Below are positions 8,996-21,490 of a stretch of DNA of 64,000 nucleotides, piece by piece. The notes under the pieces are model-generated. The model made no database searches and was not told the DNA's origin. It saw nothing but the letters and a program-made list of their open reading frames with translations. Location of the stretch: NCBI GenBank assembly GCA_036725345.1, contig DAIMEJ010000005.1:19717-83716 (forward strand). Reading direction: 5' to 3'. The DNA is from Syntrophales bacterium. GTDB taxonomy: Bacteria; Desulfobacterota; Syntrophia; Syntrophales; UBA2192. Made by a program: the position numbers and the translations under genes. Within the stretch, counting starts at the first letter, position 1, and every line of letters starts with the position of its first letter.

Positions 8996-9042
8996 ATCCG
9001 CAAGCCCTCATCACAACGACGGGCTCCTCGGGGTGAGGGGCG

Positions 9043-9579
9043 CTACAGGTCTCCCGCCCCCTTCGTGATTTTTCTTCCCGTTTCCTTGTTCATTTTTTCC
9101 GTGATGGGTTTATAGGCGTAGAGGGCTTCCCCTTCGTTCAGCATGGTCTTGAATTCGATGGTGACCAGGACCTGCTTGCCCGACCACGCGTAAAAATCCT
9201 TACCGAAAACATTCTCGCCGTCTCCATAAACCTCGACAAATGTTTGCTTCAGGTCGAGATAATTCATCAGCCCCTTCACACGGATCGTCACCTTGAAAAA
9301 ATCATCCCGGTAAAAGCCATAGGTAATGCTTTCGATGACGGCTTTCCCGATCTTCAGCTTGTCTTCGGGCCTGACATAATACTTCTCATCTCCTTCAACC
9401 CGGACAAGTTCCATCCCCGGCAACCGGGTGATTTTTGTTCCCCACCTGATTCCCCGGAAGCCTTCCGGTTCATTCTGGAAGCTCGGCACTGGGGGAGCCT
9501 TTTGAGAACACCCGAAAACAGTCATCACCAGGAGCACCGCGATGGCGACCGCCCCTATCCTGTCTTTCACCACTGACAT
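9043..9579 (-). CDS. lipoprotein, unknown function
   Basis: Start trimmed to the ATG at 9579, preceded by GGGAGGG. Lipobox VFGC present. The longer ORF in the track runs into the tRNA-derived repeat. Confidence 0.7.
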   Translation of the reverse strand: MSVVKDRIGAVAIAVLLVMTVFGCSQKAPPVPSFQNEPEGFRGIRWGTKITRLPGMELVRVEGDEKYYVRPEDKLKIGKAVIESITYGFYRDDFFKVTIRVKGLMNYLDLKQTFVEVYGDGENVFGKDFYAWSGKQVLVTIEFKTMLNEGEALYAYKPITEKMNKETGRKITKGAGDL

Positions 9580-9673
9580 TTTTCCCTCCCGGATTTTCAA
9601 TCTTCCGACCGACAGCGGTTTCACGAATGAGACTATACACCATTGCCTTTGCAATTTCGATTCCAATAAAGAC

Positions 9674-9708
9674 AAAAAAAGGGCCGCAAGCCAATAAACC
9701 CGCAGCCC
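9674..9708 (-). terminator. displaced chromosomal tRNA-Cys terminator
   Basis: On the minus strand, GGGCTGCG-loop-TGCGGCCC followed by TTTTTTT, lying just 3' of the partial tRNA-Cys copy. Confidence 0.55.
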
Positions 9709-9721
9709 TTTTACTTTATTA

Positions 9722-9769
9722 TGGAGGCGGCAACCGGATTCGAACCGGTGAATAACGGTTTTGCAGACC
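9722..9769. repeat. att direct repeat (partial 3' copy of tRNA-Cys)
   Basis: 48 nt identical base for base to 20300-20347 (tRNA-Cys CCA end through the anticodon loop). The sequences diverge at 9770 / 20348. Confidence 0.9.
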
Positions 9770-9878
9770 AATCTTTAGTGTTTAAACCTACCTGATTTCA
9801 ATAACCTTTCCACCCTGCCCTTTTTCCCGTGTTGTGAAAATTGATGGGACTTAATTTTTCGAATGATTAATCTAGATG

Positions 9879-10157
9879 CTATTGCTTTAATTCTTTATTT
9901 TGGATTAAATACCATGACTCATTGGTTAACCAACCCCAATAATTATATCCAATTTCTGATATTATGAATCGATCATTCGGTAATTTTTCATGCAATTTTT
10001 CAGCAATTGTTTTTGCATCGTATTCCGACAACAAATAAAAACAACTTCTCATGTCATATCGCCATGTGATGATTTCTTTTATTGAGTTGATAATATTCAC
10101 CAACTCATCTCGTTTTTCTATTGATCTATTGTGAACTAATAAATAGACCTTTCTCAT
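9879..10157 (-). CDS. hypothetical small soluble protein (cargo cassette gene 2)
   Basis: 92-aa ORF in a strongly AT-rich block. Its start overlaps the upstream gene stop (ATGA, 10154-10157). No family recognised. Confidence 0.6.
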   Translation of the reverse strand: MRKVYLLVHNRSIEKRDELVNIINSIKEIITWRYDMRSCFYLLSEYDAKTIAEKLHEKLPNDRFIISEIGYNYWGWLTNESWYLIQNKELKQ

Positions 10158-10525
10158 TGTCCCCTATACTCAATCGTTGGCGTTTGTGGTGTCTCAATGA
10201 CTTTAGATAAATCAATAGCAGATGGAGATGGTTCACCCTTTTGTTGCATCAATTCTAACGATATTTTCTTTAATTGATATTCTTCTGATTGCAATTTGTC
10301 TCTGTCAAAAATCAATAAAAATAGAAAGCCGAAAACCGCAGTGGCAGCTGGTAAACTCATCAAAATTATAAGCCATGTCGGAGTAGGTGCTGCTAACCAA
10401 CAGCTCAAGAAAATAGCCAGCGGTGTAATTATAGCGCATAGCCATAAGATAGGGTTTAAGGCGCTTCGGACGGTAAGTTTTCCGCCTGCGTCTATTACCC
10501 TCGTTAAGATCTGCCCTCTATCCAT
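10154..10525 (-). CDS. hypothetical two-TM membrane protein (cargo cassette gene 1)
   Basis: 123 aa with two hydrophobic helices (ILWLCAIITPLAIFLSCWLAA, WLIILMSLPAATAVFGFLFLLIF) and a charged C-terminal tail. AT-rich promoter-like region upstream. Confidence 0.6.
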   Translation of the reverse strand: MDRGQILTRVIDAGGKLTVRSALNPILWLCAIITPLAIFLSCWLAAPTPTWLIILMSLPAATAVFGFLFLLIFDRDKLQSEEYQLKKISLELMQQKGEPSPSAIDLSKVIETPQTPTIEYRGQ

Positions 10526-10706
10526 ATATCCTTTAAAATTAAAAAAATAATACTTAGCTTTATTAAGAAGAGTGTTTTATATAACAAAAACTTTGAAATA
10601 ATTCATGTTAATTTTATTATGATTTTATGAAGAGGGCATTATCTTTTTAATCCCCTTTTGAATTTAAATCCCCCCCTAAAAGTACATTAACCGCCGAAGT
10701 GCTTCC

Positions 10707-11804
10707 TCAAGAAGAAAAACTTTCTTTGACACTCTCCATCACGATAAGTTTAGTTTTGGAAATGTTATCTAACAATTTCACCGCATTTAGTTTATGGCCC
10801 GGAAGCGGATGCTGATACCTCAATGCCATCTTAATCGTCTTGTGTCCCATGATTTCCATGATCGTTTTCACATCAACCCCCGCCATGCCGAGCCGTGATC
10901 CGAAAGTGTGACGAAGGTCATGGAACCTGAACCGAACCTCTTTCAGTTCACCACGGACATTTTCGAAACGCTTTAACCCCGCCTTGTCTATTGCCGTCCA
11001 GAAGGCGTTAGTGAGGACGGTCAGCCTTTCCCCCTTTTCGTTGCAGAAAACATATTCGGATTTCTCGTCTTCGATGCGTTTTCTCAGGATAGCGATCGCC
11101 GTTGCGTTGATCGGCACATTGCGGCCCTCTGTGTTCTTGGTCACGGTGACGCTGACATAACGATCCTTCAGGCGCACATCCTGTACCCGCAGGTTCATGA
11201 TCTCCCCGAGCCTCATCCCCGTATTGAGGGCGAATGTGACCATGCCCGGAAGGTACTTCTCCCGTTGTGGTCGATCCTCGCAAGCCTGAATGAGCCTCTT
11301 TTCCTCTTCCGGGGTCAGTACCCACATCTTCTCGTTATCCTCTTTGAGCATCTTCACCCTGACAAGGGGATTGTGATTAAGCAGTTTCCACTCGACGGCC
11401 TTGTTGAGCATGTTCCGAAGCGTGGCGATGTCCCTGTTCACCGTCGCGGGGGCCTTCTTCCCTTCCCTTCTCGCCTTCCTGAATTGCTCCACGGAAAAGG
11501 GGGTGATGTCGCCGAGCATCTTCCCGTCGAAGTGCTTTTTCAGGGTGTCGATCGAAACCCCGTTGCGCTTCGCCGACCCCGGCTTCTTGTTTGCCCCGGC
11601 GTACTTCATGTACCGCTTCGCGAAATCATCAAAGAGGATTTTCTTGATCTTCGGCTTCCACTCCCCCTGAATGACCTCTTGCCTGCGTATGACGAGCTTC
11701 TCCTTCGCCACGGTCCTGCTCACCGGGCCGACACACTCGCTGTACCGCCTGCCGTCATAAACGAAATCTATGTAGTGACTTTTGCCTCTTTTATAGACGC
11801 CCAT
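10707..11804 (-). CDS. int: tyrosine-type site-specific integrase
   Basis: 365 aa with the C-terminal catalytic signature HDLRHTFGSRLGMAGVDVKTIMEIMGHKTIKMALRYQH and an upstream NTGMRLGEI Arg box. Confidence 0.95.
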   Translation of the reverse strand: MGVYKRGKSHYIDFVYDGRRYSECVGPVSRTVAKEKLVIRRQEVIQGEWKPKIKKILFDDFAKRYMKYAGANKKPGSAKRNGVSIDTLKKHFDGKMLGDITPFSVEQFRKARREGKKAPATVNRDIATLRNMLNKAVEWKLLNHNPLVRVKMLKEDNEKMWVLTPEEEKRLIQACEDRPQREKYLPGMVTFALNTGMRLGEIMNLRVQDVRLKDRYVSVTVTKNTEGRNVPINATAIAILRKRIEDEKSEYVFCNEKGERLTVLTNAFWTAIDKAGLKRFENVRGELKEVRFRFHDLRHTFGSRLGMAGVDVKTIMEIMGHKTIKMALRYQHPLPGHKLNAVKLLDNISKTKLIVMESVKESFSS

Positions 11805-11835
11805 ATAATCACCTTCCTTCTTTTTCGTAACTTCA

Positions 11836-12132
11836 TCATATCTTGTTGTTTTTTTCAGCTTTGTCCAATCTGTCTAATTCCTTTTCTAATTCATCCAGTA
11901 CTCCATCTAAATCACTTTTATTCATGCGTGCTTGCTTGAGTGCCTCCCTATGCGATTTTCCTTCTCTATAAATGTAGAACAGAATCAACGGCCAGAAAAT
12001 GATACCCAACAAAACAAAATGTAAGTTCCTTAAATCAATCTTTCTGTCAAAACCATGAGCTTGCGATTGTCGAATCTTATAATAAACAACTAATACCCCT
12101 ACGATTAACCATCCCAAGACAACCTTTGTCAT
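11836..12132 (-). CDS. hypothetical two-TM membrane protein with coiled-coil tail
   Basis: 98 aa with helices VVLGWLIVGVLVVYY and FVLLGIIFWPLILFYIY, then LDGVLDELEKELDRLDKAEK. AT-rich DNA. Confidence 0.55.
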   Translation of the reverse strand: MTKVVLGWLIVGVLVVYYKIRQSQAHGFDRKIDLRNLHFVLLGIIFWPLILFYIYREGKSHREALKQARMNKSDLDGVLDELEKELDRLDKAEKNNKI

Positions 12133-12319
12133 GGCACTGTCCCCCTAAATGCTTTGATTTCAAAATTTATCTTCTTTCTGTGAAACCCCTACCTATACAA
12201 AAAAGCCTGAGACCTTCCCCGGAGCATAAGCATCCGCCCAAGCGTCGCCGCCGTGGGGATCTCAGGCTTTCTAATCTTGTCCTGTTTCATTGCTTATGCC
12301 TCGGGAATTTAGTTTTATA

Positions 12320-12331
12320 AGTTATATAACT
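12320..12331. promoter_or_regulatory. perfect 12-bp palindrome, candidate operator
   Basis: AGTTATATAACT lies in the divergent intergenic region, 66 nt upstream of the RHH gene start. Confidence 0.3.
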
Positions 12332-12396
12332 ATATGCACCTATTAAATCAAGAAAAATTACGTTGCGGATAATACCGCGTTTCGGTATAAAAGGCC

Positions 12397-12567
12397 ATGT
12401 CAACCGAGTTGCCAAAAATCATTTTTCACCTTGATGAATCGTTACTGAAGCGCCTTGATGATTTCCGTTTCAAGCATCGCATCAATTTCAGGTCCGCCGC
12501 CATCCGACGCCTTCTCGAAGAAGCCTTGAAGAAATACGAGAAACGCTCGATGAAGAAAGGGGGATGA
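12397..12567 (+). CDS. ribbon-helix-helix (CopG/Arc/MetJ-like) DNA-binding protein
   Basis: 56-aa ORF below the track cutoff, translated by hand: MSTELPKIIFHLDESLLKRLDDFRFKHRINFRSAAIRRLLEEALKKYEKRSMKKGG. It shows a beta-strand-helix-helix pattern. Its stop is 4 nt before the next gene. Confidence 0.65.
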   Translation: MSTELPKIIFHLDESLLKRLDDFRFKHRINFRSAAIRRLLEEALKKYEKRSMKKGG

Positions 12568-12571
12568 TATA

Positions 12572-13048
12572 TTGAGGAAATATTTTACCCTTCTTTTCAT
12601 ATTTGCTGTCTTGACACCCACTAATCTTTTTGCGGCTGATTTCTATCTATATCTGGATAACTGCAAAGCCACCGTGGGATACCTCGTCGAATCCAAAGAA
12701 AATATCAAAACAGTTGATTTTGATGAAATGATCATTTCGTGTAGTAGAGTATCCCAGACAATTAAATGCGAAACGGTTTTTTTTGAAGGACAAAAAGCCA
12801 TTCAAGAGAAAAAGTTTGAATACTTCGTTGAGTTAGATTCTCCGCCGATTCTCATTTTCACCGACACAATACGGAGCGACTATTTCGTGGTAGATCTTAA
12901 TCAACACGCCGTGACAATGGTTTCACGAGTTTTGGGTGAAAAATTTGCAGGATCTAAAATTTGCACGGGCCTATATTTTACTGAGAGTGAAAGAAAATTG
13001 TTAGAAGAGAAGAAGCCCCGCACTCCTACCCCTACCCGCAAAAAATAA
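12572..13048 (+). CDS. hypothetical secreted protein
   Basis: 158 aa with a TTG start and signal peptide MRKYFTLLFIFAVLTPTNLFA. It has four Cys and a basic Pro/Thr tail. No family recognised. Confidence 0.55.
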   Translation: MRKYFTLLFIFAVLTPTNLFAADFYLYLDNCKATVGYLVESKENIKTVDFDEMIISCSRVSQTIKCETVFFEGQKAIQEKKFEYFVELDSPPILIFTDTIRSDYFVVDLNQHAVTMVSRVLGEKFAGSKICTGLYFTESERKLLEEKKPRTPTPTRKK

Positions 13049-13121
13049 TCGCCCTGAATCAATCCTGCGAAGCCCTGAATAGGCATTGACGCCCTGTCCC
13101 CGGAGTGGTATCAAATTCGAC

Positions 13122-13424
13122 ATGGATATTTCAGACCGTGATGACAATATAATCACCCTGCTCGCCTATTATCTGCACCTTGATGCGCTTAAAAAAGAGG
13201 GCCTCCTTGACAATGAATTGTTAATTAAATTTTATGAAAATTTAACTGACGAACAAAAGATGCATCTTGTTTTCTTCCAATACAAACAAATATCACTTGC
13301 TAACGAATGGAAGAAATTTCTTGAGAACCCCGAACCTAATATCAGCCGTTCCGAAGCCGTCCGTCGCACCTTTGATGAAGCCATGAAGAAATTCGAAGAA
13401 CGGATAAAAAAAACGGAAAAGTGA
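13122..13424 (+). CDS. hypothetical helical protein
   Basis: ORF 13086-13424. The ATG at 13122 (MDISDRDD...) is the likelier start. AT-rich, and no family recognised. Confidence 0.5.
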   Translation: MDISDRDDNIITLLAYYLHLDALKKEGLLDNELLIKFYENLTDEQKMHLVFFQYKQISLANEWKKFLENPEPNISRSEAVRRTFDEAMKKFEERIKKTEK

Positions 13425-13439
13425 GCCTCCTTTCCGCCC

Positions 13440-13544
13440 TCACCGCACCATAAACGAAAGAATCCAAAAGATCACAGCCGCCGTCACTATAAAGCAATAG
13501 ACGATCCCCGGCGGGCTTTTGATTAAGTCTCTGAAAGTCTCCAT
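13440..13544 (-). CDS. possible 34-aa single-TM peptide
   Basis: Hand translation METFRDLIKSPPGIVYCFIVTAAVIFWILSFMVR. Its ATG is 2 nt after the stop of the upstream HTH gene. Support comes only from position and hydrophobicity. Confidence 0.25.
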   Translation of the reverse strand: METFRDLIKSPPGIVYCFIVTAAVIFWILSFMVR

Positions 13545-13545
13545 G

Positions 13546-13857
13546 TCATTTCTCCGTTGATCCGTTCTGAATGAGGGCGATCACGCTCGACCTGAAGATA
13601 CGGATCATCTTCCCCGTCGGATTGATGCCCCTGATGATGCCCTCGTCCTGCCATTCATAAATTTTCTTGATGGACACCCTGAAGAAAGCCGCAACCTCTT
13701 TCGGCTTCAGGAGATCACGATCGGGAAGCCCTTCGATGCTTTTCAAAGAGTGCGCCGCCTTCCCCTGCCAATCTTTTTTTAGGGACGGCCCGGAAGAAAG
13801 GGGAAAAAACCGGGCCATCCCCCGGAAAAGAGGTGACGGTATCGCCTGCGCTAACAA
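13546..13857 (-). CDS. excisionase-type (HTH_17/MerR-like) DNA-binding protein
   Basis: C-terminal LLKPKEVAAFFRVSIKKIYEWQDEGIIRGI helix-turn-helix. The start may be the internal Met at 13818. Confidence 0.7.
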   Translation of the reverse strand: MLAQAIPSPLFRGMARFFPLSSGPSLKKDWQGKAAHSLKSIEGLPDRDLLKPKEVAAFFRVSIKKIYEWQDEGIIRGINPTGKMIRIFRSSVIALIQNGSTEK

Positions 13858-13929
13858 AGGGATTTAACCCCGCGCGGCACACAGGCGATTTTCCGCGCCC
13901 GTCATCACGGTCAAGACGCCGCGCTTAAC

Positions 13930-15225
13930 TTATGTGAGGATCGCGGCCCACGAAAGCGAATCCGATCCGTTTGCGGGCGTGATCGCCGACTTCCAGATCG
14001 AAACGCCGTCCGCACGCAGGCAGGCCCGCCACGAAATCAAGTCCTCGGACCATCTCGCGCTGTTCGTGCTTTCAAGCGTCACTTCCTGCCTCATGGCGAG
14101 GATATACTGCGAGAGATCGGCGCAGACCAGATCGCCCTTTGTCCCGAGGGCCGAGAGCCGATCGGACACGATCAAAGGCCTGCCTAAAATGCTCATCGCA
14201 AAATCGCCCTGAATGTTCCCGCCCGAGATCGGCCAGATCAGGCCGTTCGCATCGTCCTTCAATCTCAAAATTTGCAGAAAAGCCCCCGGAGAGCATATCC
14301 AGACAACATTCGTGAGAAGCGGGGGCCAGATGCGCGAGAGCATCGCGGTGATGTCCGCATATCCGATCGCTCCCGCCGTCGCCCTCGCGATGCTGACCGC
14401 CGAGGGGGAGTCGATAACGCCCAACGGCTGACCGACGCCGCTCCCGACGAGGATCGCCTTGTCAAGACCCCCGGCGATCGCCTGCACAAGAGCGCCGCCT
14501 AACTGTGTCCCGAAGTCGATCCCGTCCTGCACAAGCTCCCTCGACGCCGAGGCATAAACGATCAGTTTTTTCGGAGTGAGAAGGACGCTCGTTAGTTCCG
14601 GGGACACTTCGGTTGATGCCGTGGCCTCGGCGGTCCATGTCGCTTCGATGTTCCCGACTTCTCCCGTGGTCCGGTCGAAAGAGTTCCACAGGGGGAAGTT
14701 CGTGTCGCCTGTCACCGGGACGGTTCGGACATACTTTGCCGTCACGCTTTGCGCCGCGATCAGGTTGACAAGGGCCGCGGACCAAAATTCTGGCACAAGA
14801 AAACCTCCCAGAACGCCCCCGCCTGCGATGTTCGTCCTTCTCTCGACGGTCCCGGTCGCCACGGCGTTGCAGAAGTCGCTGAAGCTGTCATACCCACCGC
14901 GATCCTCGGACGGCCCGAAAAGCCGCCGATAGTCAAGGCCGATCTGACCGAGCCGGGGGATCGGATCGAGCGATCGGGTTGTTTTGGGCTGATGAAGCCG
15001 TCTGATCGGCTCATTATCCCTGCGATCCAGTTCGGCGAAGATTTCCTTTTCCTGTTTTTCGAGATCGCGGTATTTCTGATCCTCGGCCTCCGACAGTTCC
15101 CCGGCCTTCTCGCTGTCCGTGAGAATACGGCTCATGCGATGCAGGATGTCCCCGCGATTCTCCCTCAATTCCGCGTCTGACATTTTCTTGAAATCTGGGT
15201 TCGTTGTTTCGGTGCGTGCTTTCAT
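13930..15225 (-). CDS. phage major capsid protein, HK97 family
   Basis: 431 aa. Charged coiled-coil N-terminal (delta-like) segment, then GGFLVPEFW, SRELVQDGIDF, GSGVGQPLGV and ILGRPLIVSD blocks typical of the Phage_capsid/HK97 family. GGAGG RBS. Confidence 0.9.
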   Translation of the reverse strand: MKARTETTNPDFKKMSDAELRENRGDILHRMSRILTDSEKAGELSEAEDQKYRDLEKQEKEIFAELDRRDNEPIRRLHQPKTTRSLDPIPRLGQIGLDYRRLFGPSEDRGGYDSFSDFCNAVATGTVERRTNIAGGGVLGGFLVPEFWSAALVNLIAAQSVTAKYVRTVPVTGDTNFPLWNSFDRTTGEVGNIEATWTAEATASTEVSPELTSVLLTPKKLIVYASASRELVQDGIDFGTQLGGALVQAIAGGLDKAILVGSGVGQPLGVIDSPSAVSIARATAGAIGYADITAMLSRIWPPLLTNVVWICSPGAFLQILRLKDDANGLIWPISGGNIQGDFAMSILGRPLIVSDRLSALGTKGDLVCADLSQYILAMRQEVTLESTNSARWSEDLISWRACLRADGVSIWKSAITPANGSDSLSWAAILT

Positions 15226-15261
15226 TTATCCTCCATTGAAGGTTGAATTTGCCTTCCACAC

Positions 15262-15329
15262 CGACCACAAAATAAAAAACGGGCGTTGCCTTCCTTATCC
15301 CTCCTCAGAGGGGGAAAGCACGCCCGTTT
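15262..15329 (-). terminator. strong intrinsic terminator immediately upstream of the capsid gene
   Basis: On the minus strand, AAACGGGCGT...(inner CCCCCTCtgagGAGGG)...ACGCCCGTTT followed by TTTATTTT. It lies between the 95-aa ORF stop (15387) and the MCP start (15225). Confidence 0.7.
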
Positions 15330-15386
15330 CAATTTCATGGCGGCTTCTATGTTCTTTTTTATTCATATCACATCCTGACCTGATAT

Positions 15387-15674
15387 TCAATCGGAATCAT
15401 CATGACGCCGCTTTTTCGGCATCTCATAATCATAATAGGCGCGGGGCTTCTCGTCGGCCTTCAGGGTCACGAACACGCCGGGGAGCCGGGGCTTCCCCGC
15501 AAGGCCCATGAGATAGGCGCGGTTCGCAAACCATCTTTCCCTGCGCTCGGAATCGTCGCGGAAGGGATAGCCACCGCCCAAGTGCCAGCCAGCCAATAAA
15601 TGCGCCGTCTGAAACGGGGTCAGACCGGAATCATTCAGGCGTTCGATTTTTTTCTTGACGGGCTTCCTCGGCAT
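15387..15674 (-). CDS. hypothetical protein (95 aa)
   Basis: Trimmed from ORF 15387-15845 to the ATG at 15674, which follows GAGGAT and lies 10 nt after the terS stop. No family recognised. Confidence 0.5.
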   Translation of the reverse strand: MPRKPVKKKIERLNDSGLTPFQTAHLLAGWHLGGGYPFRDDSERRERWFANRAYLMGLAGKPRLPGVFVTLKADEKPRAYYDYEMPKKRRHDDSD

Positions 15675-15684
15675 ATTCTGATCC

Positions 15685-16014
15685 TCACTTATAAAGTCCC
15701 GGCGGGCGGCTCTCGGGGATGCTCCCGAGATCGATCGCGATCTCGCGGACGGCCCGCAGGAATCCGATCCGCGATTGCTGAATGATCTTCGTCCCGGGAT
15801 GCTCCACAAGCCCGCCGTATCGGTTCCTGATGAACATCCCGTCACTTTCGATCGCCTTCATCGCCTGATCCTCATCGTCGAGAAAAAGGCACGCCCGCTC
15901 AAGACGGGCGAGATCGTGAGCGTCCCTGATCTCAAATTCTTTAAGAACGGCTATCCAGAATTTTCGGCCCGCTTCCTTCAGGGTCGAAGGCGGCTCCGGT
16001 TTGTCAATCGTCAT
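15685..16014 (-). CDS. phage terminase small subunit, P27 family
   Basis: 109 aa. The pattern GRKFWIAVLKEFEIRDAHDLARLERACLFLDDEDQAMKAI...GGLVEHPG resembles Terminase_4 (P27) small subunits. Confidence 0.8.
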   Translation of the reverse strand: MTIDKPEPPSTLKEAGRKFWIAVLKEFEIRDAHDLARLERACLFLDDEDQAMKAIESDGMFIRNRYGGLVEHPGTKIIQQSRIGFLRAVREIAIDLGSIPESRPPGLYK

Positions 16015-16117
16015 ACATACTCCCTCAATCGCTTTGAACAGGGTGAAAACGCACTAAGCGGACAGACCGGGAGCGTTATACGACGGAAAGTTTTTCGAAA
16101 GTCGATGCCCCCCGGCG

Positions 16118-16339
16118 TCATTGAATAAGCCTCGGTTTCCCGTCAATGCCCTGTTCCTCAAGTTCCTGTGCGGCTCTGTCCACAAGATATTGCCCGATGA
16201 TGCCGACGATCCCCTGAAGCGTTATCGCCGCGTTTTGCAGGCCTTCGAGATCGCCCTTTGCCATGAAGCCGTTCACCCACGCCGCGATCCGCTCGACCTC
16301 TTTTCGGTTCTCACGCATGAATTTGTCTGGTTTGTCCAT
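16118..16339 (-). CDS. hypothetical protein (73 aa)
   Basis: ORF sits in operon position between the primase and terS. No family recognised. Confidence 0.5.
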   Translation of the reverse strand: MDKPDKFMRENRKEVERIAAWVNGFMAKGDLEGLQNAAITLQGIVGIIGQYLVDRAAQELEEQGIDGKPRLIQ

Positions 16340-16412
16340 GTTCGTTCCTCTCTGTTTTTTTTAGATTCGCCCCGGCCCGATTCCGTGCGCTCAGACAAGA
16401 TTTCCCTTGTGG

Positions 16413-18428
16413 TTATCCTTCCCGGCTCGGGAAAGGGACACTCGTTGAACATCTGCGCCCCTGTGCGATAATAGGACGCAACGGCTCAAATTGAAGTTTT
16501 GCCCCCCGTGGATTCCGAAACCGGATATGCTGACCCTCGGGCAACCGGATGTCATCAACGATATACCGGACCTTCTTCAGAATGACATAGCCGTCGATGC
16601 CGCCCTGCTCTTTCCACATCGTCATGTGAATTGTCGCCGCATACTCGCTCTGTTGTTTTCCCTTTGCGGTATTCACGCCCTCGTCCTTCTGGATGGCGAC
16701 CAATACCACGCCGCTTCCGACCCTGCTTTTCATCCGTCTTAGATAGGTGTCCAGATTCGGATAATCGTCCGGGCTGAATTGAAACCAATCCAGAATGTTT
16801 ATGGCGTCGGGGACGATCAGGTCGGGATAATCGGCGGCAGGACGGGCGACTTCTTCACGGAAGTGGAAACGCCAATCATTCATCAGGCGGTGAAACCGTG
16901 GATCGGCTTCCTGTTCGAAACGGCGCAGATAGATGTTCACCTCATGCCGATTCAGTTCGGTCGATGTATAGACAATCCGGTGATCGTGGTCGTTCAATCG
17001 GATGAAGTTAAAGAAATAGGTTGATTTCCCTGACCCCGGCTCACCCGCAAGGACGATGAGCGAACCGGGATGGATGTCGGCATATTCGTGAAACCCGCCG
17101 GGAAGGGCGAGGCTGATAGGCTCTACCTGCTCTACATTCCGATAATCCACGAAACCGATGTGCGACAAAACCCGCCGATAAGCCCCGGCCCTCTGCGGAT
17201 GCCGTTCCGCATCGCCCCTCTGCACGGCACGGTGCAGATATGTTTTCGTCCTCACCGTCTTAATTCCCGTCCACCGGGAAACCTCGTCAATGGTCGTCCA
17301 CTTCCCTTCGTTTGCGAGGCAATCCAGAATCTTCCCATAATCAGAAGGCTGTGACCTGAATTGTGACTTCGAGTGACCGTCACAGGGTTGCTGTGACCTG
17401 TTTTCGTCGGCAGTTTCGTTCAAGTCCCCGAAATCATTAGAGGCGGCATTTTTTTCGGGCGTTTCGTCAGCCTGTGACCTGCGTGCGTGCGTATTAAAAG
17501 ATATATTTATATATTCCACATGTGGTGACTGATCCTCTGCGGTATCATCGCCGGGAGCTTGTGACACATTTTGTGACAGGTAACGCCTTGCCCTCTTGAT
17601 CTCATCGGCAAGCCAACGGTGACGGCCCCCGCCCTTCCCCCGGTACTTCAGGCCGCAGGGATAATTCTCGAAGATGTGATAGACGGCCCCCGGCTCTGCG
17701 CCCTGTGACAGCATGGAGCATATCAGGGCGAACCCCGCTTCGGATCGCGAGGGGTACTTCCCGATCGCCCCTTCCGTGACGAAAGCCCGAAGGTCATCCG
17801 AAAAAGTGAAGTCCTCGGGATCGACCTCGACGGGGTTGCCCAGTTCCATGTCGTTGTCGCCGTCGGCTTCCTCGTCTGCGGCAAGGCCCAGAAACCACTC
17901 GGGCGCCTCGGCGATCCGCACATCGAGCGATATTTCATACAGCTTCCCCGTGTCCGGGTGAACAGAGCCGGGAGCGACCACGCATCCCCCGTCGGCCCTG
18001 ATGTCGAAGCCGTGTTCCTTGAACGTCCGGTTGCGGTATCGCGTGCCGTTCTTCGGGTAGCGGAAGTAGTAGTGAAACTTTCCCGATCCTGTCATGACCT
18101 CAAGCGTGGTCGGGAGTCTCCACTTCTGACCCTCGGCGTACTTCCGAAACCGATCAAGATCGTCAATATCGAGAACGATCAGGCCCGATGCGGGACCGCA
18201 GGCGATCCCGGCGTTCTTGCCGATGTACTCACAGCCGTGAAACGGCCTTTGCTCCCTGCACCACTTCTGCCAATCGCTTTCGAAGGGAGCCTTGCCGATG
18301 AGCGGTATTAGGGAAAGGTCTCTCTCGTCGTGTAGCTCCCGCCACAGCAAGGGCGATTTATTTTCTGCGAGTGTTCCGACCTGCTCGGGCGTCAAGTCTT
18401 TCCACTTCCTTTCCGGTTGTTCGTTCAT
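16413..18428 (-). CDS. bifunctional PrimPol-type primase / P-loop replicative helicase
   Basis: Start trimmed to the ATG at 18428, preceded by GGAGGTGG. The N-terminal Prim-Pol pattern is GKAPFESDWQKW...GIACGPASGLIVLDIDD. A low-complexity linker and a wHTH-like segment follow, then Walker A LAGEPGSGKST and a RecA/DnaB-like C-terminal domain. Confidence 0.85.
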   Translation of the reverse strand: MNEQPERKWKDLTPEQVGTLAENKSPLLWRELHDERDLSLIPLIGKAPFESDWQKWCREQRPFHGCEYIGKNAGIACGPASGLIVLDIDDLDRFRKYAEGQKWRLPTTLEVMTGSGKFHYYFRYPKNGTRYRNRTFKEHGFDIRADGGCVVAPGSVHPDTGKLYEISLDVRIAEAPEWFLGLAADEEADGDNDMELGNPVEVDPEDFTFSDDLRAFVTEGAIGKYPSRSEAGFALICSMLSQGAEPGAVYHIFENYPCGLKYRGKGGGRHRWLADEIKRARRYLSQNVSQAPGDDTAEDQSPHVEYINISFNTHARRSQADETPEKNAASNDFGDLNETADENRSQQPCDGHSKSQFRSQPSDYGKILDCLANEGKWTTIDEVSRWTGIKTVRTKTYLHRAVQRGDAERHPQRAGAYRRVLSHIGFVDYRNVEQVEPISLALPGGFHEYADIHPGSLIVLAGEPGSGKSTYFFNFIRLNDHDHRIVYTSTELNRHEVNIYLRRFEQEADPRFHRLMNDWRFHFREEVARPAADYPDLIVPDAINILDWFQFSPDDYPNLDTYLRRMKSRVGSGVVLVAIQKDEGVNTAKGKQQSEYAATIHMTMWKEQGGIDGYVILKKVRYIVDDIRLPEGQHIRFRNPRGAKLQFEPLRPIIAQGRRCSTSVPFPSREG
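17348..17580. other. origin-of-replication-like iteron cluster with AT-rich core, inside the primase coding sequence
   Basis: CTGTGACCTG occurs perfectly at 17348, 17390 and 17471. TGTGAC cores are at 17361, 17559 and 17571. GTGACCGTCAC palindrome at 17372-17382. A 24-nt almost pure A/T run spans 17491-17514. CCACATGTGG palindrome at 17515-17524. Confidence 0.5.
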
Positions 18429-18526
18429 ATCCACCTCCGAAATGGATGTCCGATAGTCAAGGCGCGGGGAGCGGGTCGGAGTTCCCGCCGTCAGCCGATC
18501 GAGCCTACCCCGCACCCATTTTGCCG

Positions 18527-19480
18527 TCACGATAGAAGCCGCTTTTTGTCTTGTTCGTTGTCTGATTCGTGGCGATTTCTATCTCCGTCCAGTTCTGCAA
18601 ATTGTCTCAGGAGCCGAGCCTTCCCTGCGTCAAAACTAAGCCTTGCCGATGTCCCTTCGTATATGTCCGAATTGAAAGTTTCCCTGCGAACAACCAAATG
18701 GTCTATCTGGTCACTCAAGCGCGGCATCATGTCGGCAACATACTGAATGAATGAACCGAACGGTTGTATTTGATAAAGCTTTCCGTCTTGCCCTGTGTCG
18801 GTTGTCTGTTCTGCTTTCTGTTCAACGAAAACATCCATCCGCCTGATTATAATTTGAGCTAACGTTCTTGCCCGTTCAAATGTAGCTTCCTTCCAATTCT
18901 TCGGCGGCTCTTTAGGAAGGATCAAAAGAACCCGTTCAAGCGTTTCAATATAAATCTGCGCTTCAAGGCTATCTTCTATCGAAGATGCTTTGCTTTTCGA
19001 TTGCTCTTTTCTCTGCTTTTCTTTCTCGTAATTTATGGCATTGATAACGGCGGTCTTTGTCGGGATGTCCTCGTTCTCCCTCGCCTGCGCTTTTATTTTC
19101 TCCACCACAGCCGGGTTCTCGGAAATGGCTCGGGCCTGATGCGCTCGCTTATGGTCTATGCCTTCGGGAAGCACTTTTGATGGTGTACCCTTCGGGACAC
19201 CTTTCCGTCCGGTCATCGCTTTATCCCTGCTCGGCAATAGCTCACCGATGCGGCCTTCAATATCGAGAAGAAGTTCCCCCGCATCCTGACCGTCTTTCAG
19301 CGTGGCCTTTCGCTGTTCTTCTGCCATACCTAACTTGTCCATCGCCTTGACCTTCGCCCGGTAATAACTGACAGCCGCTTGCCCAATGAATGACAACGGC
19401 ACAAGGTCATCCAGTTTTCCGGGCAGTAGCTTCTGCGCCTTCACCAGTTTGAAAATCTCTGTGGCTTCTTTTCCCTTCAT
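18527..19480 (-). CDS. hypothetical protein (317 aa)
   Basis: Start trimmed to the ATG at 19480, after AAGGGGG. Charged, helical, and no family recognised. Sits between the AlpA-like gene and the primase. Confidence 0.55.
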   Translation of the reverse strand: MKGKEATEIFKLVKAQKLLPGKLDDLVPLSFIGQAAVSYYRAKVKAMDKLGMAEEQRKATLKDGQDAGELLLDIEGRIGELLPSRDKAMTGRKGVPKGTPSKVLPEGIDHKRAHQARAISENPAVVEKIKAQARENEDIPTKTAVINAINYEKEKQRKEQSKSKASSIEDSLEAQIYIETLERVLLILPKEPPKNWKEATFERARTLAQIIIRRMDVFVEQKAEQTTDTGQDGKLYQIQPFGSFIQYVADMMPRLSDQIDHLVVRRETFNSDIYEGTSARLSFDAGKARLLRQFAELDGDRNRHESDNEQDKKRLLS

Positions 19481-19505
19481 GGTATGCCCCCTTCTTTTTC
19501 TTTTT

Positions 19506-19700
19506 TTATTCCTTGACAACCTCGTTGAGCTTCACACCCGGCGATGCATCGGCCCACGATTCGATTTCGTCACGGAAAAAAATTAACCGTCCACCCGCCT
19601 TCCTGAATGGGATCCGTCGGCGAAGCACAAGGTTCCTGACGGCTCCCGGTGTCCGGTGGAGATAATTGCTCACATGCTGTACCAACCAAATTTCACGCAT
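19506..19700 (-). CDS. AlpA/excisionase-type HTH regulator
   Basis: 64 aa. IWLVQHVSNYLHRTPGAVRNLVLRRRIPFRKAGGRLIFFRDEIESW fits the HTH_17 pattern. Confidence 0.7.
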   Translation of the reverse strand: MREIWLVQHVSNYLHRTPGAVRNLVLRRRIPFRKAGGRLIFFRDEIESWADASPGVKLNEVVKE

Positions 19701-19893
19701 CGGGAAAGATTTCCTTCTCGTCGCAGGTGAGAAGCTTCGCCCACTTCCTGCGTTGCTCTGCCGTCAGAACCTTCCGTCCCCGCAGGACGCGGGACACATC
19801 GGCTTCGTGGATTCCGACCTCGCGTGCAAACTCCCATTGTGACCCGTGGGTTTCGATGATCCGGGCCTTCAGCTTCCTGTTCACATCCTTCAT
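19693..19893 (-). CDS. Cro/XRE-like HTH regulator
   Basis: 66 aa. SQWEFAREVGIHEADVSRVLRGRK is a helix-turn-helix. AGGAG RBS. First gene of the minus-strand operon. Confidence 0.7.
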   Translation of the reverse strand: MKDVNRKLKARIIETHGSQWEFAREVGIHEADVSRVLRGRKVLTAEQRRKWAKLLTCDEKEIFPDA

Positions 19894-19910
19894 GGCTCGC
19901 TCCTATGCTG

Positions 19911-19950
19911 AAAATAAAAAAAGCCGCCCACGCCAAACGGCGTGAACGGC
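19911..19950 (-). terminator. intrinsic terminator just upstream of the Cro-like gene
   Basis: On the minus strand, GCCGttCACGCC-gttt-GGCGTGggCGGC followed by TTTTTTTATTTT. It ends 17 nt before the ATG at 19893. Confidence 0.6.
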
Positions 19951-20076
19951 CTTCCAATTGCGAATTGTGTTTTTTAAAGAGCCATCATTGCAAATGCCGC
20001 TTCACACGCATGGCGGTGTCAACTAACTGCGCTGGGACGAAAAGGGTAATCACATCTGCGATGATGTTCTGAATAA

Positions 20077-20104
20077 ATTTTACTGTGTTATTTCTGAACG
20101 TCAA
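20077..20104 (-). promoter_or_regulatory. candidate sigma-70 promoter reading toward the Cro-like operon
   Basis: On the minus strand, TTGACG (20104-20099), a 16-nt spacer, then TAAAAT (20082-20077). Confidence 0.35.
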
Positions 20105-20241
20105 CAAGAAAATTGCTTATGCCGAAAATACTGCCCTATCTGATGCATCTGATGCATGGAAAGGTGTTGTGAAAATTACTGTGACTCGGGAGGCGAAAAG
20201 CGGGTTTTTTGTGCTTTACCGTACTTTCTGTGATACTCATC

Positions 20242-20286
20242 GAGAAAAAGAAAAAGGGTCGCAAGTCATTGATATACCTGCAACCC
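20242..20286 (-). terminator. element-borne terminator now serving the tRNA-Gly/tRNA-Cys transcript
   Basis: On the minus strand, GGGTTGCA-15 nt loop-TGCGACCC followed by TTTTTCTTTTTC. Homologous with indels to 9674-9708. Confidence 0.55.
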
Positions 20287-20299
20287 TCTGACTTTATTT

Positions 20300-20347
20300 T
20301 GGAGGCGGCAACCGGATTCGAACCGGTGAATAACGGTTTTGCAGACC
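20300..20347. repeat. att direct repeat inside the intact tRNA-Cys
   Basis: Identical to 9722-9769. Confidence 0.9.
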
Positions 20348-20375
20348 GCTGCCTTAGCCACTTGGCTATGCCGCC
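20300..20375 (-). tRNA. tRNA-Cys (anticodon GCA)
   Basis: Reverse complement GGCGGCATAGCCAAGTGGCTAAGGCAGCGGTCTGCAAAACCGTTATTCACCGGTTCGAATCCGGTTGCCGCCTCCA folds as a cloverleaf. Anticodon loop CTGCAAA, discriminator U, encoded CCA. Confidence 0.95.
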
Positions 20376-20384
20376 GTAAATGTC

Positions 20385-20459
20385 TGGAGCGGGCGAACGG
20401 ATTTGAACCGTCGACGTCTACCTTGGCAAGGTAGCACTCTACCGCTGAGTTACGCCCGC
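20385..20459 (-). tRNA. tRNA-Gly (anticodon GCC)
   Basis: Reverse complement GCGGGCGTAACTCAGCGGTAGAGTGCTACCTTGCCAAGGTAGACGTCGACGGTTCAAATCCGTTCGCCCGCTCCA. Anticodon loop TTGCCAA. Confidence 0.95.
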
Positions 20460-20476
20460 TCGAATAGAGGGGATTA

Positions 20477-20504
20477 TTAATAGCAAATCGGCGCATCTTG
20501 TCAA
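20477..20504 (-). promoter_or_regulatory. sigma-70 promoter of the tRNA-Gly/tRNA-Cys operon
   Basis: On the minus strand, TTGACA (20504-20499), a 16-nt spacer, then TATTAA (20482-20477), about 17 nt before the tRNA-Gly 5' end. Confidence 0.5.
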
Positions 20505-20607
20505 TAAAAAATTCTCGAGGGTTCGACGGGCCTGAATGAATCGGGTTGCGCCTCTTTTCAGAGGCGCAACCCGTGCGACACACCGCCCATGACCGCGTTT
20601 TTTCCCC

Positions 20608-20636
20608 TTGAAAAATGCGGGCTTTTTGGTTATAGA
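20608..20636 (+). promoter_or_regulatory. sigma-70 promoter of tRNA-Val
   Basis: TTGAAA (20608-20613), a 17-nt spacer, then TATAGA (20631-20636), 12 nt before the tRNA-Val 5' end. Confidence 0.55.
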
Positions 20637-20648
20637 ATGCACTCATTC

Positions 20649-20723
20649 GGGCGGTTAACTCAGCGGGAGAGTGCTACCTTCACACGGTAGAAGTCACTGG
20701 TTCAAATCCAGTACCGCCTACCA
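20649..20723 (+). tRNA. tRNA-Val (anticodon CAC)
   Basis: GGGCGGTTAACTCAGCGGGAGAGTGCTACCTTCACACGGTAGAAGTCACTGGTTCAAATCCAGTACCGCCTACCA. Anticodon loop TTCACAC, encoded CCA. Confidence 0.95.
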
Positions 20724-20812
20724 TGAGACGGCCAAAGGGGCCGGTCCTCACGGACCGGCCCCTTGCATTTTCCGCCGTCACGATATATGGAACGGGCAGT
20801 CACGGGGCCTTT

Positions 20813-21490
20813 ATGAATCTCCGGAAGGAAATCAAATATTACCTCCTCAACAATTACCTGACGTCTCTCGCCTATCACGTCTGTAACCTTTACGTGCGAA
20901 CCAACCGTGTCACCATCGAAGGTGAAGAGGTCATCCGCGAACACTTCGAGAAGGGCGGAAGCGCGATCTTCGCTTCCTGGCATCAGCGTTTCTTCGGCGG
21001 CTTCTATGCCCCCTGGATTCTGAAGATGACCCCCTGCATCATGATCAGCGCAAGCCGCGACGGGGATTTTGTCTCGACCGTAGCGAGCCGGATCGGCTGG
21101 ATCCCCGTCCGCGGGTCCAGTTCCCGGCGCGGCAAGGAGGCCCTGAAGGAGATGATTGAAGGCGTTAAGACCCACCGCTTAGGCGGTCACATCGTCGACG
21201 GCCCTCAGGGACCGCCCCGCATCGTCAAAGCGGGTTTGATCACCCTGGCACAGCGGACCGGCGCCGCCATCTTCCCCATTTACATCACCTACGAAAACCC
21301 CCATGTCTTCGGCAGCTGGGATCGCTTCATGGTCCCGAAACCCTTCAGTCGCACCCTCGTGCGCGTGGGTTCCCCGTTGTACGTCCCGCGGGAAACACTG
21401 AGCAACGAGCAGTTCGAGAAGATCCGCCTGGACATCGAGCAACGGATGATTCAGGGTTATGCCGAAGCGGATTCCTACTGGAAGCAATAA
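20813..21490 (+). CDS. DUF374 / lysophospholipid acyltransferase-family protein
   Basis: Start trimmed to the ATG at 20813, because the longer ORF overlaps tRNA-Val. Motifs FASWHQRFF, SASRDGDF and RGSSSRRGKEAL are typical of DUF374. Confidence 0.75.
   Translation: MNLRKEIKYYLLNNYLTSLAYHVCNLYVRTNRVTIEGEEVIREHFEKGGSAIFASWHQRFFGGFYAPWILKMTPCIMISASRDGDFVSTVASRIGWIPVRGSSSRRGKEALKEMIEGVKTHRLGGHIVDGPQGPPRIVKAGLITLAQRTGAAIFPIYITYENPHVFGSWDRFMVPKPFSRTLVRVGSPLYVPRETLSNEQFEKIRLDIEQRMIQGYAEADSYWKQ

What the first reader, a model, noticed from the sequence alone, without database searches (positions are those of the whole stretch)
17348..17580. Origin-like iteron and AT-rich cluster embedded inside the primase-helicase coding sequence
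Within about 230 bp encoding the low-complexity linker between the PrimPol and helicase domains there are several repeats. The 10-mer CTGTGACCTG occurs three times perfectly (17348, 17390, 17471). More TGTGAC cores lie at 17361, 17559 and 17571. The palindrome GTGACCGTCAC is at 17372-17382. A repeated TTTCGTC(G/A)GC motif abuts two of the iterons (17401, 17461). A 24-nt almost pure A/T run (17491-17514) sits in otherwise GC-rich DNA, followed directly by the perfect palindrome CCACATGTGG (17515-17524). Iterons flanking an AT-rich unwinding element are the standard architecture of replicon origins recognised by their cognate initiator. In SaPI-type islands, as I recall, the ori lies next to the pri/rep genes. 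Here it appears to be written into the initiator gene itself, and the repeated SQ dipeptides in the linker (RSQ, KSQ, VSQ) are simply the translation of the iteron.
Basis: partly seen in the sequence, partly recalled or inferred. Interest (0 to 1): 0.65.

Follow-up and report, generated by a model that had tools for sequence, protein, structure and literature searches.

The report
Replication origin inside primase-helicase gene linker
A small phage-satellite-like island carries what is very probably its replication origin (short repeated binding sites around an easily melted A/T tract) inside the coding sequence of its own primase-helicase, in the disordered linker between two domains; relatives carry the same module either there or just after the gene.

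Summary
CTGTGACCTG occurs exactly at 17349, 17391 and 17472. Seven of the window's 21 TGTGAC cores lie in 17350-17577. A tract with 23 of 24 A/T (17492-17515) abuts the palindrome CCACATGTGG (17516-17525).

The repeats exceed what the peptide requires (synonymous-codon resampling, p about 2e-4). They lie in a predicted disordered linker of a PrimPol / winged-helix / RecA-like ATPase protein. The gene sits in a 10.5-kb island integrated at tRNA-Cys, with integrase, HK97 capsid and TerS-like genes.

Comparison settles the interpretation. Among 14 distinct complete homologues:
- All 8 with a long linker have an iteron array in it, each with its own sequence. In five of them the 10-11 bp spacing puts copies in all three reading frames.
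- All 6 without a linker have the array within 400 bp after the stop codon, which is the SaPI/PICI position.

The closest homologue (45% identity, no linker) has a collinear copy of the window's palindrome, A/T tract and iterons in non-coding DNA after its stop codon.

Binding and replication remain untested. This is a new variant of known kinds (PICI-type ori; the lambda ori inside gene O), not a new principle.

The parts
16413..18428 (-). Primase-helicase (initiator) gene. 671 aa from ATG 18428; the open frame extends to GTG 18530 (705 aa).
   Evidence: ORF. The gene call of 671 aa equals P0001. PrimPol PF09250, E 3.6e-24.
17895..18323 (-). PrimPol (archaeo-eukaryotic primase-polymerase) domain, aa 70-212 of the 705-aa frame.
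   Evidence: Pfam PF09250. PHROG DNA primase families. pLDDT above 90 in the model.
17358..17555 (-). Predicted disordered interdomain linker (aa 326-391 of the 705-aa frame), which is encoded by the origin module.
   Evidence: AlphaFold2 pLDDT below 50 for P0001 residues 292-357. The linker is hypervariable, 0 to about 158 aa, among homologues.
17349..17579 (.). Putative origin of replication: iterons on both sides of an A/T-rich unwinding tract.
   Evidence: for the window. for homologues.
17472..17481 (-). Iteron 1, CAGGTCACAG (exact 10-mer), the first after the A/T tract.
17391..17400 (-). Iteron 2, CAGGTCACAG (exact). It forms a 7-bp inverted repeat with the inverted copy at 17379-17385.
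17379..17384 (+). Inverted iteron core (GTCACA on the + strand, opposite in orientation to the other copies), followed by the partial copy GGTCAC (17373-17378, - strand).
17361..17367 (-). Iteron GTCACAA (read as K-S-Q).
17349..17358 (-). Iteron CAGGTCACAG (exact).
17559..17579 (-). Two degenerate iterons on the other side of the A/T tract: CTGTCACAA and GTGTCACAA, 12 bp apart.
17492..17515 (.). A/T-rich tract (23 of 24 A/T), the candidate DNA-unwinding element. Only the frame in use is free of stop codons.
   Evidence: Frames read directly from the sequence.
17516..17525 (.). Perfect palindrome CCACATGTGG abutting the A/T tract. It is conserved in the non-coding origin of L082.
17402..17471 (-). 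Spacer of about 70 bp carrying a second repeated motif, G(C/T)(C/T)GACGAAA(A)C, at 17402-17411 and 17462-17471. L082 has GGCCGAAAC at the matching place.
17172..17342 (-). Winged-helix domain (three helices and a beta wing) directly after the linker. Inferred to be the iteron reader.
   Evidence: Model secondary structure H363-374, H380-387, H391-403, E407-409, E416-419. Helix 3 co-varies with the iteron in L014/L107/L024.
16509..17102 (-). RecA-fold (RadA/KaiC/DnaB-like) P-loop ATPase, the presumed hexameric helicase motor.
   Evidence: Weak Pfam DnaB_C, AAA_25 and KaiC hits. RadA by sequence. Foldseek hits to RadA, KaiC and DnaB at E about 2e-9.
9722..9769 (.). Island end: a 48-bp direct repeat of the 3' part of tRNA-Cys.
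20300..20347 (.). Other island end, inside tRNA-Cys (20300-20375, - strand).

Best explanation
Positions 17349-17579 are most likely the vegetative replication origin of a 10.5-kb integrated phage-satellite-like island (9770-20299). The origin is written in frame into the disordered linker of the island's own initiator, a fusion of PrimPol, winged helix and RecA-like helicase.

Proposed mechanism (inferred, by analogy with the experimentally characterised SaPI/PICI Rep proteins):
1. The winged-helix domain, encoded directly 3' of the linker, binds the GGTCACA iterons. Two degenerate copies lie on one side of the 24-nt A/T tract and six on the other.
2. Oligomerisation on the iterons melts the A/T tract.
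3. The RecA-like ATPase ring loads itself onto the opened DNA.
4. The fused PrimPol domain primes synthesis.

What is shown: the repeats are a DNA-level feature. The same kind of array accompanies every homologous gene. The same module is non-coding in the nearest relative. The linker is dispensable for the protein.

What is inferred: which domain binds the iterons, that melting occurs at the A/T tract, and that replication starts here.
For: (1) The repeats exceed peptide-level expectation, and they cluster.

(2) An unbiased 8-mer cluster scan was run on 14 distinct complete homologous genes, counting the window's own gene. Eight of 8 long-linker genes have the array in the linker. Six of 6 linkerless genes have it within 400 bp 3' of the stop codon.

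(3) Iteron spacing is 9-12 bp in both coding and non-coding arrays. In five homologues the copies fall in all three reading frames.

(4) L082 is the closest homologue (44.6% identity) and the same kind of island (pri, terS-like, capsid, int). It has CCACATGTGG, an A/T tract, ACGCAGGTAACA, a spacer of about 78 bp and a cluster of 4 iterons in non-coding DNA after its stop codon. This is collinear with the window: 81-bp spacer; z = 5.8.

(5) The module coincides with the only long low-confidence segment of the structure model. It is immediately followed by a winged helix.

(6) L014 and L107 share the iteron CGATACA and an identical helix 3, although they are only 69.5% identical overall. L024 is 86.4% identical to L014 but differs in both iteron and helix 3.

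(7) Across 179 distinct PrimPol genes, strong repeat clusters are 12.5 times denser in the 400 bp 3' of the gene than elsewhere. That is the position of the experimentally proven PICI/SaPI origins, which are iterons flanking an A/T-rich region and are bound by the Rep winged helix (PMC9371898, PMC6092414).

(8) There is precedent for an origin in the middle of the initiator gene in which extra iterons add extra residues to the protein: lambda and Stx phage O (PMC7466680).
Against: - No experiment or coverage data are available. Binding, melting and initiation are all inferred.
- In the window itself all six direct copies are in one reading frame (spacings 12, 87, 81, 30, 12). The window alone therefore cannot exclude old in-frame duplications.
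- The two flanks of the A/T tract have the same iteron orientation. SaPI origins are described as having opposed sets.
- Several homologues' linkers (L081, L085, L167) have iterons but no marked A/T tract.
- BLASTN does not rate the window-L082 DNA similarity as significant (E 0.85). Only the shuffle-calibrated local alignment does.
- The covariation between helix 3 and iteron rests on three sequences.
Confidence: 0.8

Rival explanations
1. The array is a packaging (pac) recognition site for the island's TerS-like protein, not an origin.
For: The island encodes a P27-family small-terminase-like protein about 0.4 kb downstream of the primase gene. Some pac sites are built from short repeats (own knowledge: P1, SPP1).
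Against: The array follows the primase gene, not terS. It lies in the linker or directly 3' of the gene in 14 of 14 family members. These include 60-76 kb phage contigs in which the terminase gene is about 7 kb away (L085; L104/L170). The 3' enrichment also holds across 179 PrimPol genes in varied contexts. The layout, iterons around an A/T tract, matches proven PICI origins (PMC6092414).
Confidence: 0.04
2. The repeats are non-functional by-products of slippage or duplication in a tolerant, disordered, low-complexity linker.
For: The linker is hypervariable in length and dispensable. In the window all copies are in frame. L167 has a 9-bp tandem array (DTS x6) of the kind slippage produces. 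Close variants L087-L089 accumulate changes faster in the linker: 5 of 13 variable sites fall in 11% of the gene.
Against: The copies are dispersed, with unrelated spacers and one inverted copy. Periodicities of 10-11 bp that cut across reading frames in five homologues are not codon-level events. Linkerless homologues have equivalent arrays in non-coding DNA. The window module is collinear with the non-coding module of L082, including the palindrome and A/T tract. An A/T tract with a single open frame implies selection on two levels.
Confidence: 0.07
3. The iterons are operator or copy-control sites only. The initiator or another island HTH protein binds them to block transcription of the gene or to handcuff copies, while initiation occurs elsewhere.
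For: Iterons in plasmids commonly serve in both initiation and control (own knowledge). Bound protein inside a gene would impede its transcription. The island encodes two HTH_17 proteins of unknown target.
Against: No second iteron and A/T cluster exists in the island. Exact AGGTCACAG occurs nowhere else in 9700-20400, and the only multi-k-mer clusters in the island are this one and one at the att end. This role does not exclude an origin function; it would more likely be an added one.
Confidence: 0.07

Closest known systems
SaPI / PICI replicon (pri, rep, ori; e.g. SaPI1 Rep1, SaPI5 PriRep5, EcCICFT073)
   Same: An integrated island of about 10 kb with integrase, an AlpA-like HTH and terS. 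The initiator is a self-loading helicase with a winged helix, sometimes fused to a primase. The origin consists of short iterons on both sides of an A/T-rich region, and each element has its own iteron sequence (PMC9371898, PMC6092414). The linkerless homologues L082, L004, L014, L017, L024 and L107 have the array exactly where PICIs have theirs, immediately 3' of the gene.
   Different: In the window the origin is inside the gene, in the interdomain linker. The winged helix precedes the ATPase, whereas in SaPI Reps it lies in the C-terminal domain. The motor is RecA/DnaB-like by fold, with no sequence similarity to SaPI Reps detected. The two flanking iteron sets have the same orientation. 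The hosts appear to be Desulfobacterota-like anaerobes.
Lambdoid phage ori inside gene O
   Same: The origin (iterons plus an A/T-rich region) lies in the middle of the initiator's own coding sequence. The number of iterons changes the length of the protein, and the encoded segment is not needed for DNA binding (PMC7466680).
   Different: O protein is a pure origin binder that recruits host DnaB through P. Here the initiator carries its own helicase and primase. Lambda iterons are about 19 bp rather than 7-10 bp. There is no homology between the proteins.
N15 / PY54 RepA (primase-helicase of linear plasmid prophages)
   Same: From my own recall (Mardanov & Ravin 2006, listed as a reference in PMC3155836): a multidomain primase-helicase initiator whose origin lies inside repA and which acts in cis.
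   Different: No similarity to N15-like phages was found for either half of the protein in GenBank phages. By recall, the N15 origin is in the 3' part of repA, not in an interdomain linker. I could not confirm this in the paper library.
pRN1 ORF904 (archaeal plasmid PrimPol-helicase)
   Same: A PrimPol fused to a helicase and a winged helix. The sequence essential for replication lies just downstream of the gene (PMC4234260), which matches the general 3' rule seen.
   Different: It has a superfamily-3 helicase. The origin is 3' of the gene and is not an iteron array inside a linker. The host is archaeal.
repABC plasmid RepC / oriV
   Same: The origin lies within the initiator coding region, and an A/T-rich segment there is required. 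This was shown by silent mutations (PMC3155836).
   Different: No iterons were found in repC. The protein is unrelated.

Membership tests
PICI/SaPI-type replicon | Initiator combining a helicase with a winged-helix DNA-binding domain, optionally fused to a primase | tested here: met
   PrimPol PF09250. Winged-helix secondary structure and a RecA-like ATPase in the model. The ATPase class differs from the SaPI Reps.
PICI/SaPI-type replicon | Origin located immediately 3' of the initiator gene | tested here: not met
   In the window the array lies 940-1170 bp upstream of the stop codon, inside the gene. The 73-bp 3' intergenic region (16340-16412) has no array. The feature is met in the six linkerless homologues.
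PICI/SaPI-type replicon | Two sets of short iterons flanking an A/T-rich region | tested here: met
   Two copies at 17559-17579 and six at 17349-17481 flank the A/T tract 17492-17515.
PICI/SaPI-type replicon | At least two iterons on each side, pointing in opposite directions | tested here: not met
   Both flanks have the same orientation. Only one inverted copy exists (17379-17384), and it is on the same side as the main cluster. L104 does show two opposed arrays.
PICI/SaPI-type replicon | The pri-rep-ori segment drives autonomous replication; Rep binds its cognate iterons | not testable with these tools
   Needs plasmid maintenance assays and EMSA.
PICI/SaPI-type replicon | Integrated island with its own integrase, att repeats, an AlpA/Xis-type regulator and phage-related packaging genes | tested here: met
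   48-bp att repeat at tRNA-Cys. Integrase, two HTH_17 proteins, HK97 capsid and a TerS-like protein. Induction by a helper phage is not testable.
Lambda-type intragenic origin | Iterons and an A/T-rich region inside the initiator's own coding sequence, between functional domains | tested here: met
   The array coincides with the disordered segment between the PrimPol region and the winged helix.
Lambda-type intragenic origin | O-type initiator that recruits the host helicase through a P-type loader | tested here: not met
   The initiator carries its own ATPase and primase. No O or P homologue is among the island proteins.
N15-type RepA | Sequence homology to RepA of N15, PY54 or phiKO2 | tested here: not met
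   tblastn of both halves against 50,697 phage records returned no N15-like phage.

The most novel reading that the evidence does not exclude
The origin is a portable cassette of about 180 bp that has moved at least twice between the 3' flank of the initiator gene and its disordered linker. On this reading the intragenic position is adaptive, for three reasons. It places the iterons within about 100 bp of the winged-helix segment that reads them, so recombination at the PrimPol/helicase junction (a junction at which PrimPol domains have clearly been swapped onto other helicases) never separates a specificity pair. It makes the initiator act preferentially in cis, through coupled transcription and translation. 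And it lets bound initiator throttle its own transcription.
Probability: 0.3. Interest if true: 0.7.

Novelty: new variant of a known kind. Interest (0 to 1): 0.55.

Why it matters
It gives a clean natural example of dual coding. The same 180-230 bp serve as protein linker and as origin, and in sister elements the module is non-coding. This separates DNA-level from protein-level constraint without any experiment.

It supplies a ready-made experimental design: the linker is dispensable and the origin can be relocated.

It shows that the PICI rule 'ori lies 3' of rep' has a systematic exception in an uncharacterised family of PrimPol / winged-helix / RecA-like initiators. These come from satellites and phages of anaerobic Desulfobacterota-like hosts. 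Annotation pipelines that look for origins only in intergenic DNA would miss them.

The paired changes of iteron and recognition helix (L014, L107, L024) offer a handle on how initiator specificity switches.

Tried and rejected
- The single-protein scan of genome contigs found no relative. Alignment A1 was too diverse to seed a scan. The trimmed alignment A2 worked.
- BLASTN of the window linker against the homologue loci gave only E 0.85 for L082. I replaced it with a local alignment calibrated on dinucleotide shuffles.
- P0039 has no DNA on file.
- Substitution patterns among the near-identical L087, L088 and L089 were too sparse (13 sites). None of the five linker changes hits an iteron core, but the chance of that is about 0.2, so it is uninformative.
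- Internal promoter or internal start that would express the helicase half separately: there is no sigma-70-like site on the coding strand in the linker. There is no Met or plausible start between the linker and about residue 566. Rejected.
- RNA element: no Rfam family other than the tRNAs in 9000-21000.
- Defence or accessory function of neighbouring ORFs: no PADLOC or Pfam hits.
- Protein-level meaning of the SQ dipeptides: rejected, because the codons are invariant (TCA CAG/CAA) and the homologues' repeats cross reading frames.
- GC-skew switch at the site: the 100-nt profile is too noisy for a 10-kb element.
- I could not confirm in the paper library that the N15 origin lies inside repA. 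It is kept as recall only.
Full report
**1. The observation**

The region was read directly.
- CTGTGACCTG is exact at 17349, 17391 and 17472.
- TGTGAC cores lie at 17350, 17362, 17392, 17473, 17560 and 17572, with an inverted copy at 17379-17384.
- TTTCGTC(G/A)GC is at 17402 and 17462.
- An A/T tract (23 of 24 A/T) spans 17492-17515, followed by CCACATGTGG at 17516-17525.

The hexamer is not enriched in the window overall (21 found against 19 expected). However, a third of all copies lie in 230 bp. Exact AGGTCACAG occurs four times in 64 kb, three of them here. Only five places in the window reach 22 or more A/T in 24 nt, all of them within the island.

**2. The gene**

The region lies in one open frame on the minus strand (16413-18530). 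The called gene is 671 aa from ATG 18428.
- Pfam finds PrimPol (PF09250, E 3.6e-24) at residues 70-212. It also finds weak P-loop, DnaB_C, AAA_25 and KaiC matches at 483-570.
- An AlphaFold2 model built on 82 homologues has mean pLDDT 83.9. Its only long low-confidence internal segment is residues 292-357 of the 671-aa protein, which corresponds to nt 17358-17555, the repeat region.
- That segment is followed at once by three helices and a two-strand wing, and then by an alpha/beta ATPase.
- Foldseek places the ATPase with RadA/Sms, KaiC, DnaB and RecA at E about 2e-9. Sequence searches agree weakly.

The protein is therefore PrimPol, helical region, disordered linker, winged helix and RecA-like motor.

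**3. DNA-level or protein-level repeats**

On the coding strand the three exact copies read AGG TCA CAG (RSQ). The others read AAG/CTG/GTG TCA CAA. TCA is about 7% of Ser codons in flanking host genes.

I kept the peptide fixed and resampled synonymous codons from the island's own usage. A 10-mer occurring three times arose in 0.015% of 20,000 trials, and a hexamer occurring seven times in 0.02%.

In the A/T tract only the frame in use is free of stop codons; this can be read from the sequence. The repeats therefore go beyond what the protein requires. In this window, though, all direct copies share one frame (spacings 12, 87, 81, 30, 12). The window alone is not decisive.

**4. Context**

A 48-bp direct repeat (9722-9769 and 20300-20347) is the 3' part of tRNA-Cys. 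It bounds a 10.5-kb island. The island encodes:
- a tyrosine integrase;
- two HTH_17 (AlpA/Xis-like) proteins;
- an HK97-type major capsid protein;
- a P27-family TerS-like protein;
- the primase-helicase;
- several ORFs with no family match.

The window is, or overlaps, a JGI metagenome contig. Two syntenic islands were found around homologous primases: L082 and L084.

**5. Homologues**

Word-based search found almost nothing beyond the PrimPol domain. The exhaustive HMMER search found about 20 proteins with the full architecture. Their alignment shows a linker of 0 to about 100 aa (up to 158 aa in the ORF survey). Long linkers contain short peptide repeats that differ from protein to protein. 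DNA was obtained for 14 distinct complete genes, counting the window's own.

**6. The comparative test**

I scanned each locus without prior assumptions for 8-mers present at least three times within 300 bp, on either strand.
- All 8 long-linker genes have a multi-k-mer array in the linker: the window, L002, L081, L083/84, L085/86, L087-89, L104 and L167.
- All 6 complete linkerless genes have it within 400 bp after the stop codon, in most cases starting within about 60 bp of it: L004, L014, L017, L024, L082 and L107.
- Each element has its own iteron: GGTCACA, GGTAACA, CTCACA, CCTCAAC, GTAAGG, CGATACA, CGCTACA, GCCGTCAA, GACGAC, CTCAGCA, GATACAAAC, GATACCTC.
- Spacing is 9-12 bp in coding and non-coding arrays alike. 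In L002, L081, L083, L087 and L104 the copies fall in all three reading frames. A protein-level explanation cannot account for that.
- L104 has two opposed arrays around a spacer of about 110 bp.
- The non-coding arrays of L014, L017, L024 and L107 are followed by an A/T-rich stretch and inverted copies.

**7. The nearest relative**

L082 encodes the closest homologue (44.6% identity over the two domains) and has no linker. Six bases after its stop codon comes this sequence: CCACATGTGG, an A/T tract, ACGCAGGTAACA, GGCCGAAAC, a gap of 78 bp, an inverted copy, and four iterons 9-12 bp apart.

The window's coding strand has CCACATGTGG, an A/T tract, ACGCAGGTCACA, GCTGACGAAAC, a gap of 81 bp, and a cluster that includes an inverted copy.

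The best local alignment of the window core against the whole L082 locus, both strands, is exactly this site. Its score is 51, against 32.3 +/- 3.2 for shuffles, and 0 of 300 shuffles reach it. BLASTN alone rates the similarity as not significant. In the window's frame the L082 copy runs into a stop codon, and no gene is called there.

L084 and L087 belong to the same clade and carry the module in the linker. They share the layout of a TGTG(A/G) motif, an A/T tract, TTATA(C/T)(G/A)C and a first iteron.

**8. Distribution**

A neighbour-joining tree of the two conserved domains has no support values, so it is indicative only. It puts the linkerless genes in one clade, with L082 separately as the window's sister. 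This implies at least two changes of position.

I also surveyed 179 distinct PrimPol genes with any C-terminal domain. Strong repeat clusters occur at 0.87 per kb in the 400 bp 3' of the gene, against 0.07 per kb elsewhere. The 3' position is therefore the general rule, and the linker position is a speciality of this family.

**9. Who reads the iterons**

This step is inferred. The winged helix is encoded right after the linker. L014 and L107 are 69.5% identical overall, yet they share iteron CGATACA and an identical helix 3 (YTVARNCIRRMV). L024 is 86.4% identical to L014, but it has iteron CGCTACA/CACTACA and four changes in that helix. This is suggestive, but it rests on three sequences.

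**10. What is known**

- SaPI and PICI origins lie immediately 3' of rep. They consist of 6-12 iterons of 5-6 nt on both sides of an A/T-rich region, are bound by the winged helix of the self-loading Rep helicase, and support autonomous replication (PMC9371898, PMC6092414).
- The lambdoid origin lies in the middle of gene O, and extra iterons add residues to O (PMC7466680).
- The RepC oriV lies in the repC coding region (PMC3155836).
- The pRN1 replicon needs sequence downstream of its PrimPol-helicase gene (PMC4234260).
- By my own recall, the N15 origin lies inside repA. I could not confirm this in the library.
- No characterised phage in GenBank is close to either half of this protein.

**11. 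Verdict**

The best explanation is a PICI-like iteron/A-T origin relocated into the disordered linker of its own PrimPol / winged-helix / RecA-like initiator (confidence about 0.8).

The rivals each retain a few per cent: a pac site, functionless slippage, and operator-only sites. The main argument against all three is that the array tracks the primase gene in every context and is non-coding in sister elements.

Intragenic origins and PICI-type origins are both established. This is therefore a new variant of a known kind in an uncharacterised family, of moderate interest, and it offers an unusually clean set of natural controls for experiment.

Noticed in passing
window 9770-20299: The whole island looks like a small phage satellite. 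It has 48-bp att repeats at tRNA-Cys, an integrase, two HTH_17 proteins, an HK97 major capsid protein (no portal or protease seen), a P27-type TerS-like protein and the primase-helicase. Syntenic islands occur in L082 (Logan SRR27710296) and L084 (an ENA anaerobic-digester metagenome). It may be an undescribed family of capsid-encoding satellites in Desulfobacterota-like hosts.
   Followed up: partly
window 11836-13424: An A/T-rich (about 44% GC) accessory segment with four small ORFs, partly on the opposite strand. None has a Pfam or PADLOC match.
   Followed up: partly
179 PrimPol loci (L002-L246): Strong 8-mer repeat clusters are 12.5 times denser in the 400 bp 3' of PrimPol-helicase genes than elsewhere (0.87 against 0.07 per kb). 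This is a simple predictor of origins for this large, mostly unannotated gene class.
   Followed up: partly
L014 3724-3908, L107 1846-2053, L024 8751-8973: An apparent specificity switch. L014 and L107 share iteron CGATACA and an identical winged-helix helix 3. L024 is 86% identical to L014 but has iteron CGCTACA/CACTACA and four substitutions in that helix.
   Followed up: partly
window 17482-17492: A short (GCGT)n / (ACGC)n microrepeat sits between the A/T tract and the first iteron. L082 has only one ACGC unit at the matching place.
   Followed up: no
L085 9862-11016 and L086 6678-7832: An IS605 OrfB/TnpB (Cas12f-like) gene sits directly 3' of the primase-helicase gene in a phage contig of about 60 kb.
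   Followed up: no
L087 4757-5239 (also L088, L089): A second repeat cluster lies about 1.1 kb 3' of the primase gene (GAGGTGAGCAATGCCGAGAAA repeated). Its role is unknown.
   Followed up: no
window 17172-17342 (protein residues 399-450): A weak, sub-threshold NCBIfam match of the winged-helix region to the ORF80 family of pRN-plasmid DNA-binding proteins (E 0.005).
   Followed up: no
window 47800-48197: A cluster of CCTGGCCC / GGCCAGGA 8-mers inside ORF 46610-48547, outside the island. Not examined.
   Followed up: no
window 20077-20104 (- strand): The best sigma-70-like match in the region (TTGACG, 16 nt, TAAAAT) lies upstream of the AlpA-like gene. It is a plausible promoter for the operon that contains the primase gene.
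   Followed up: no
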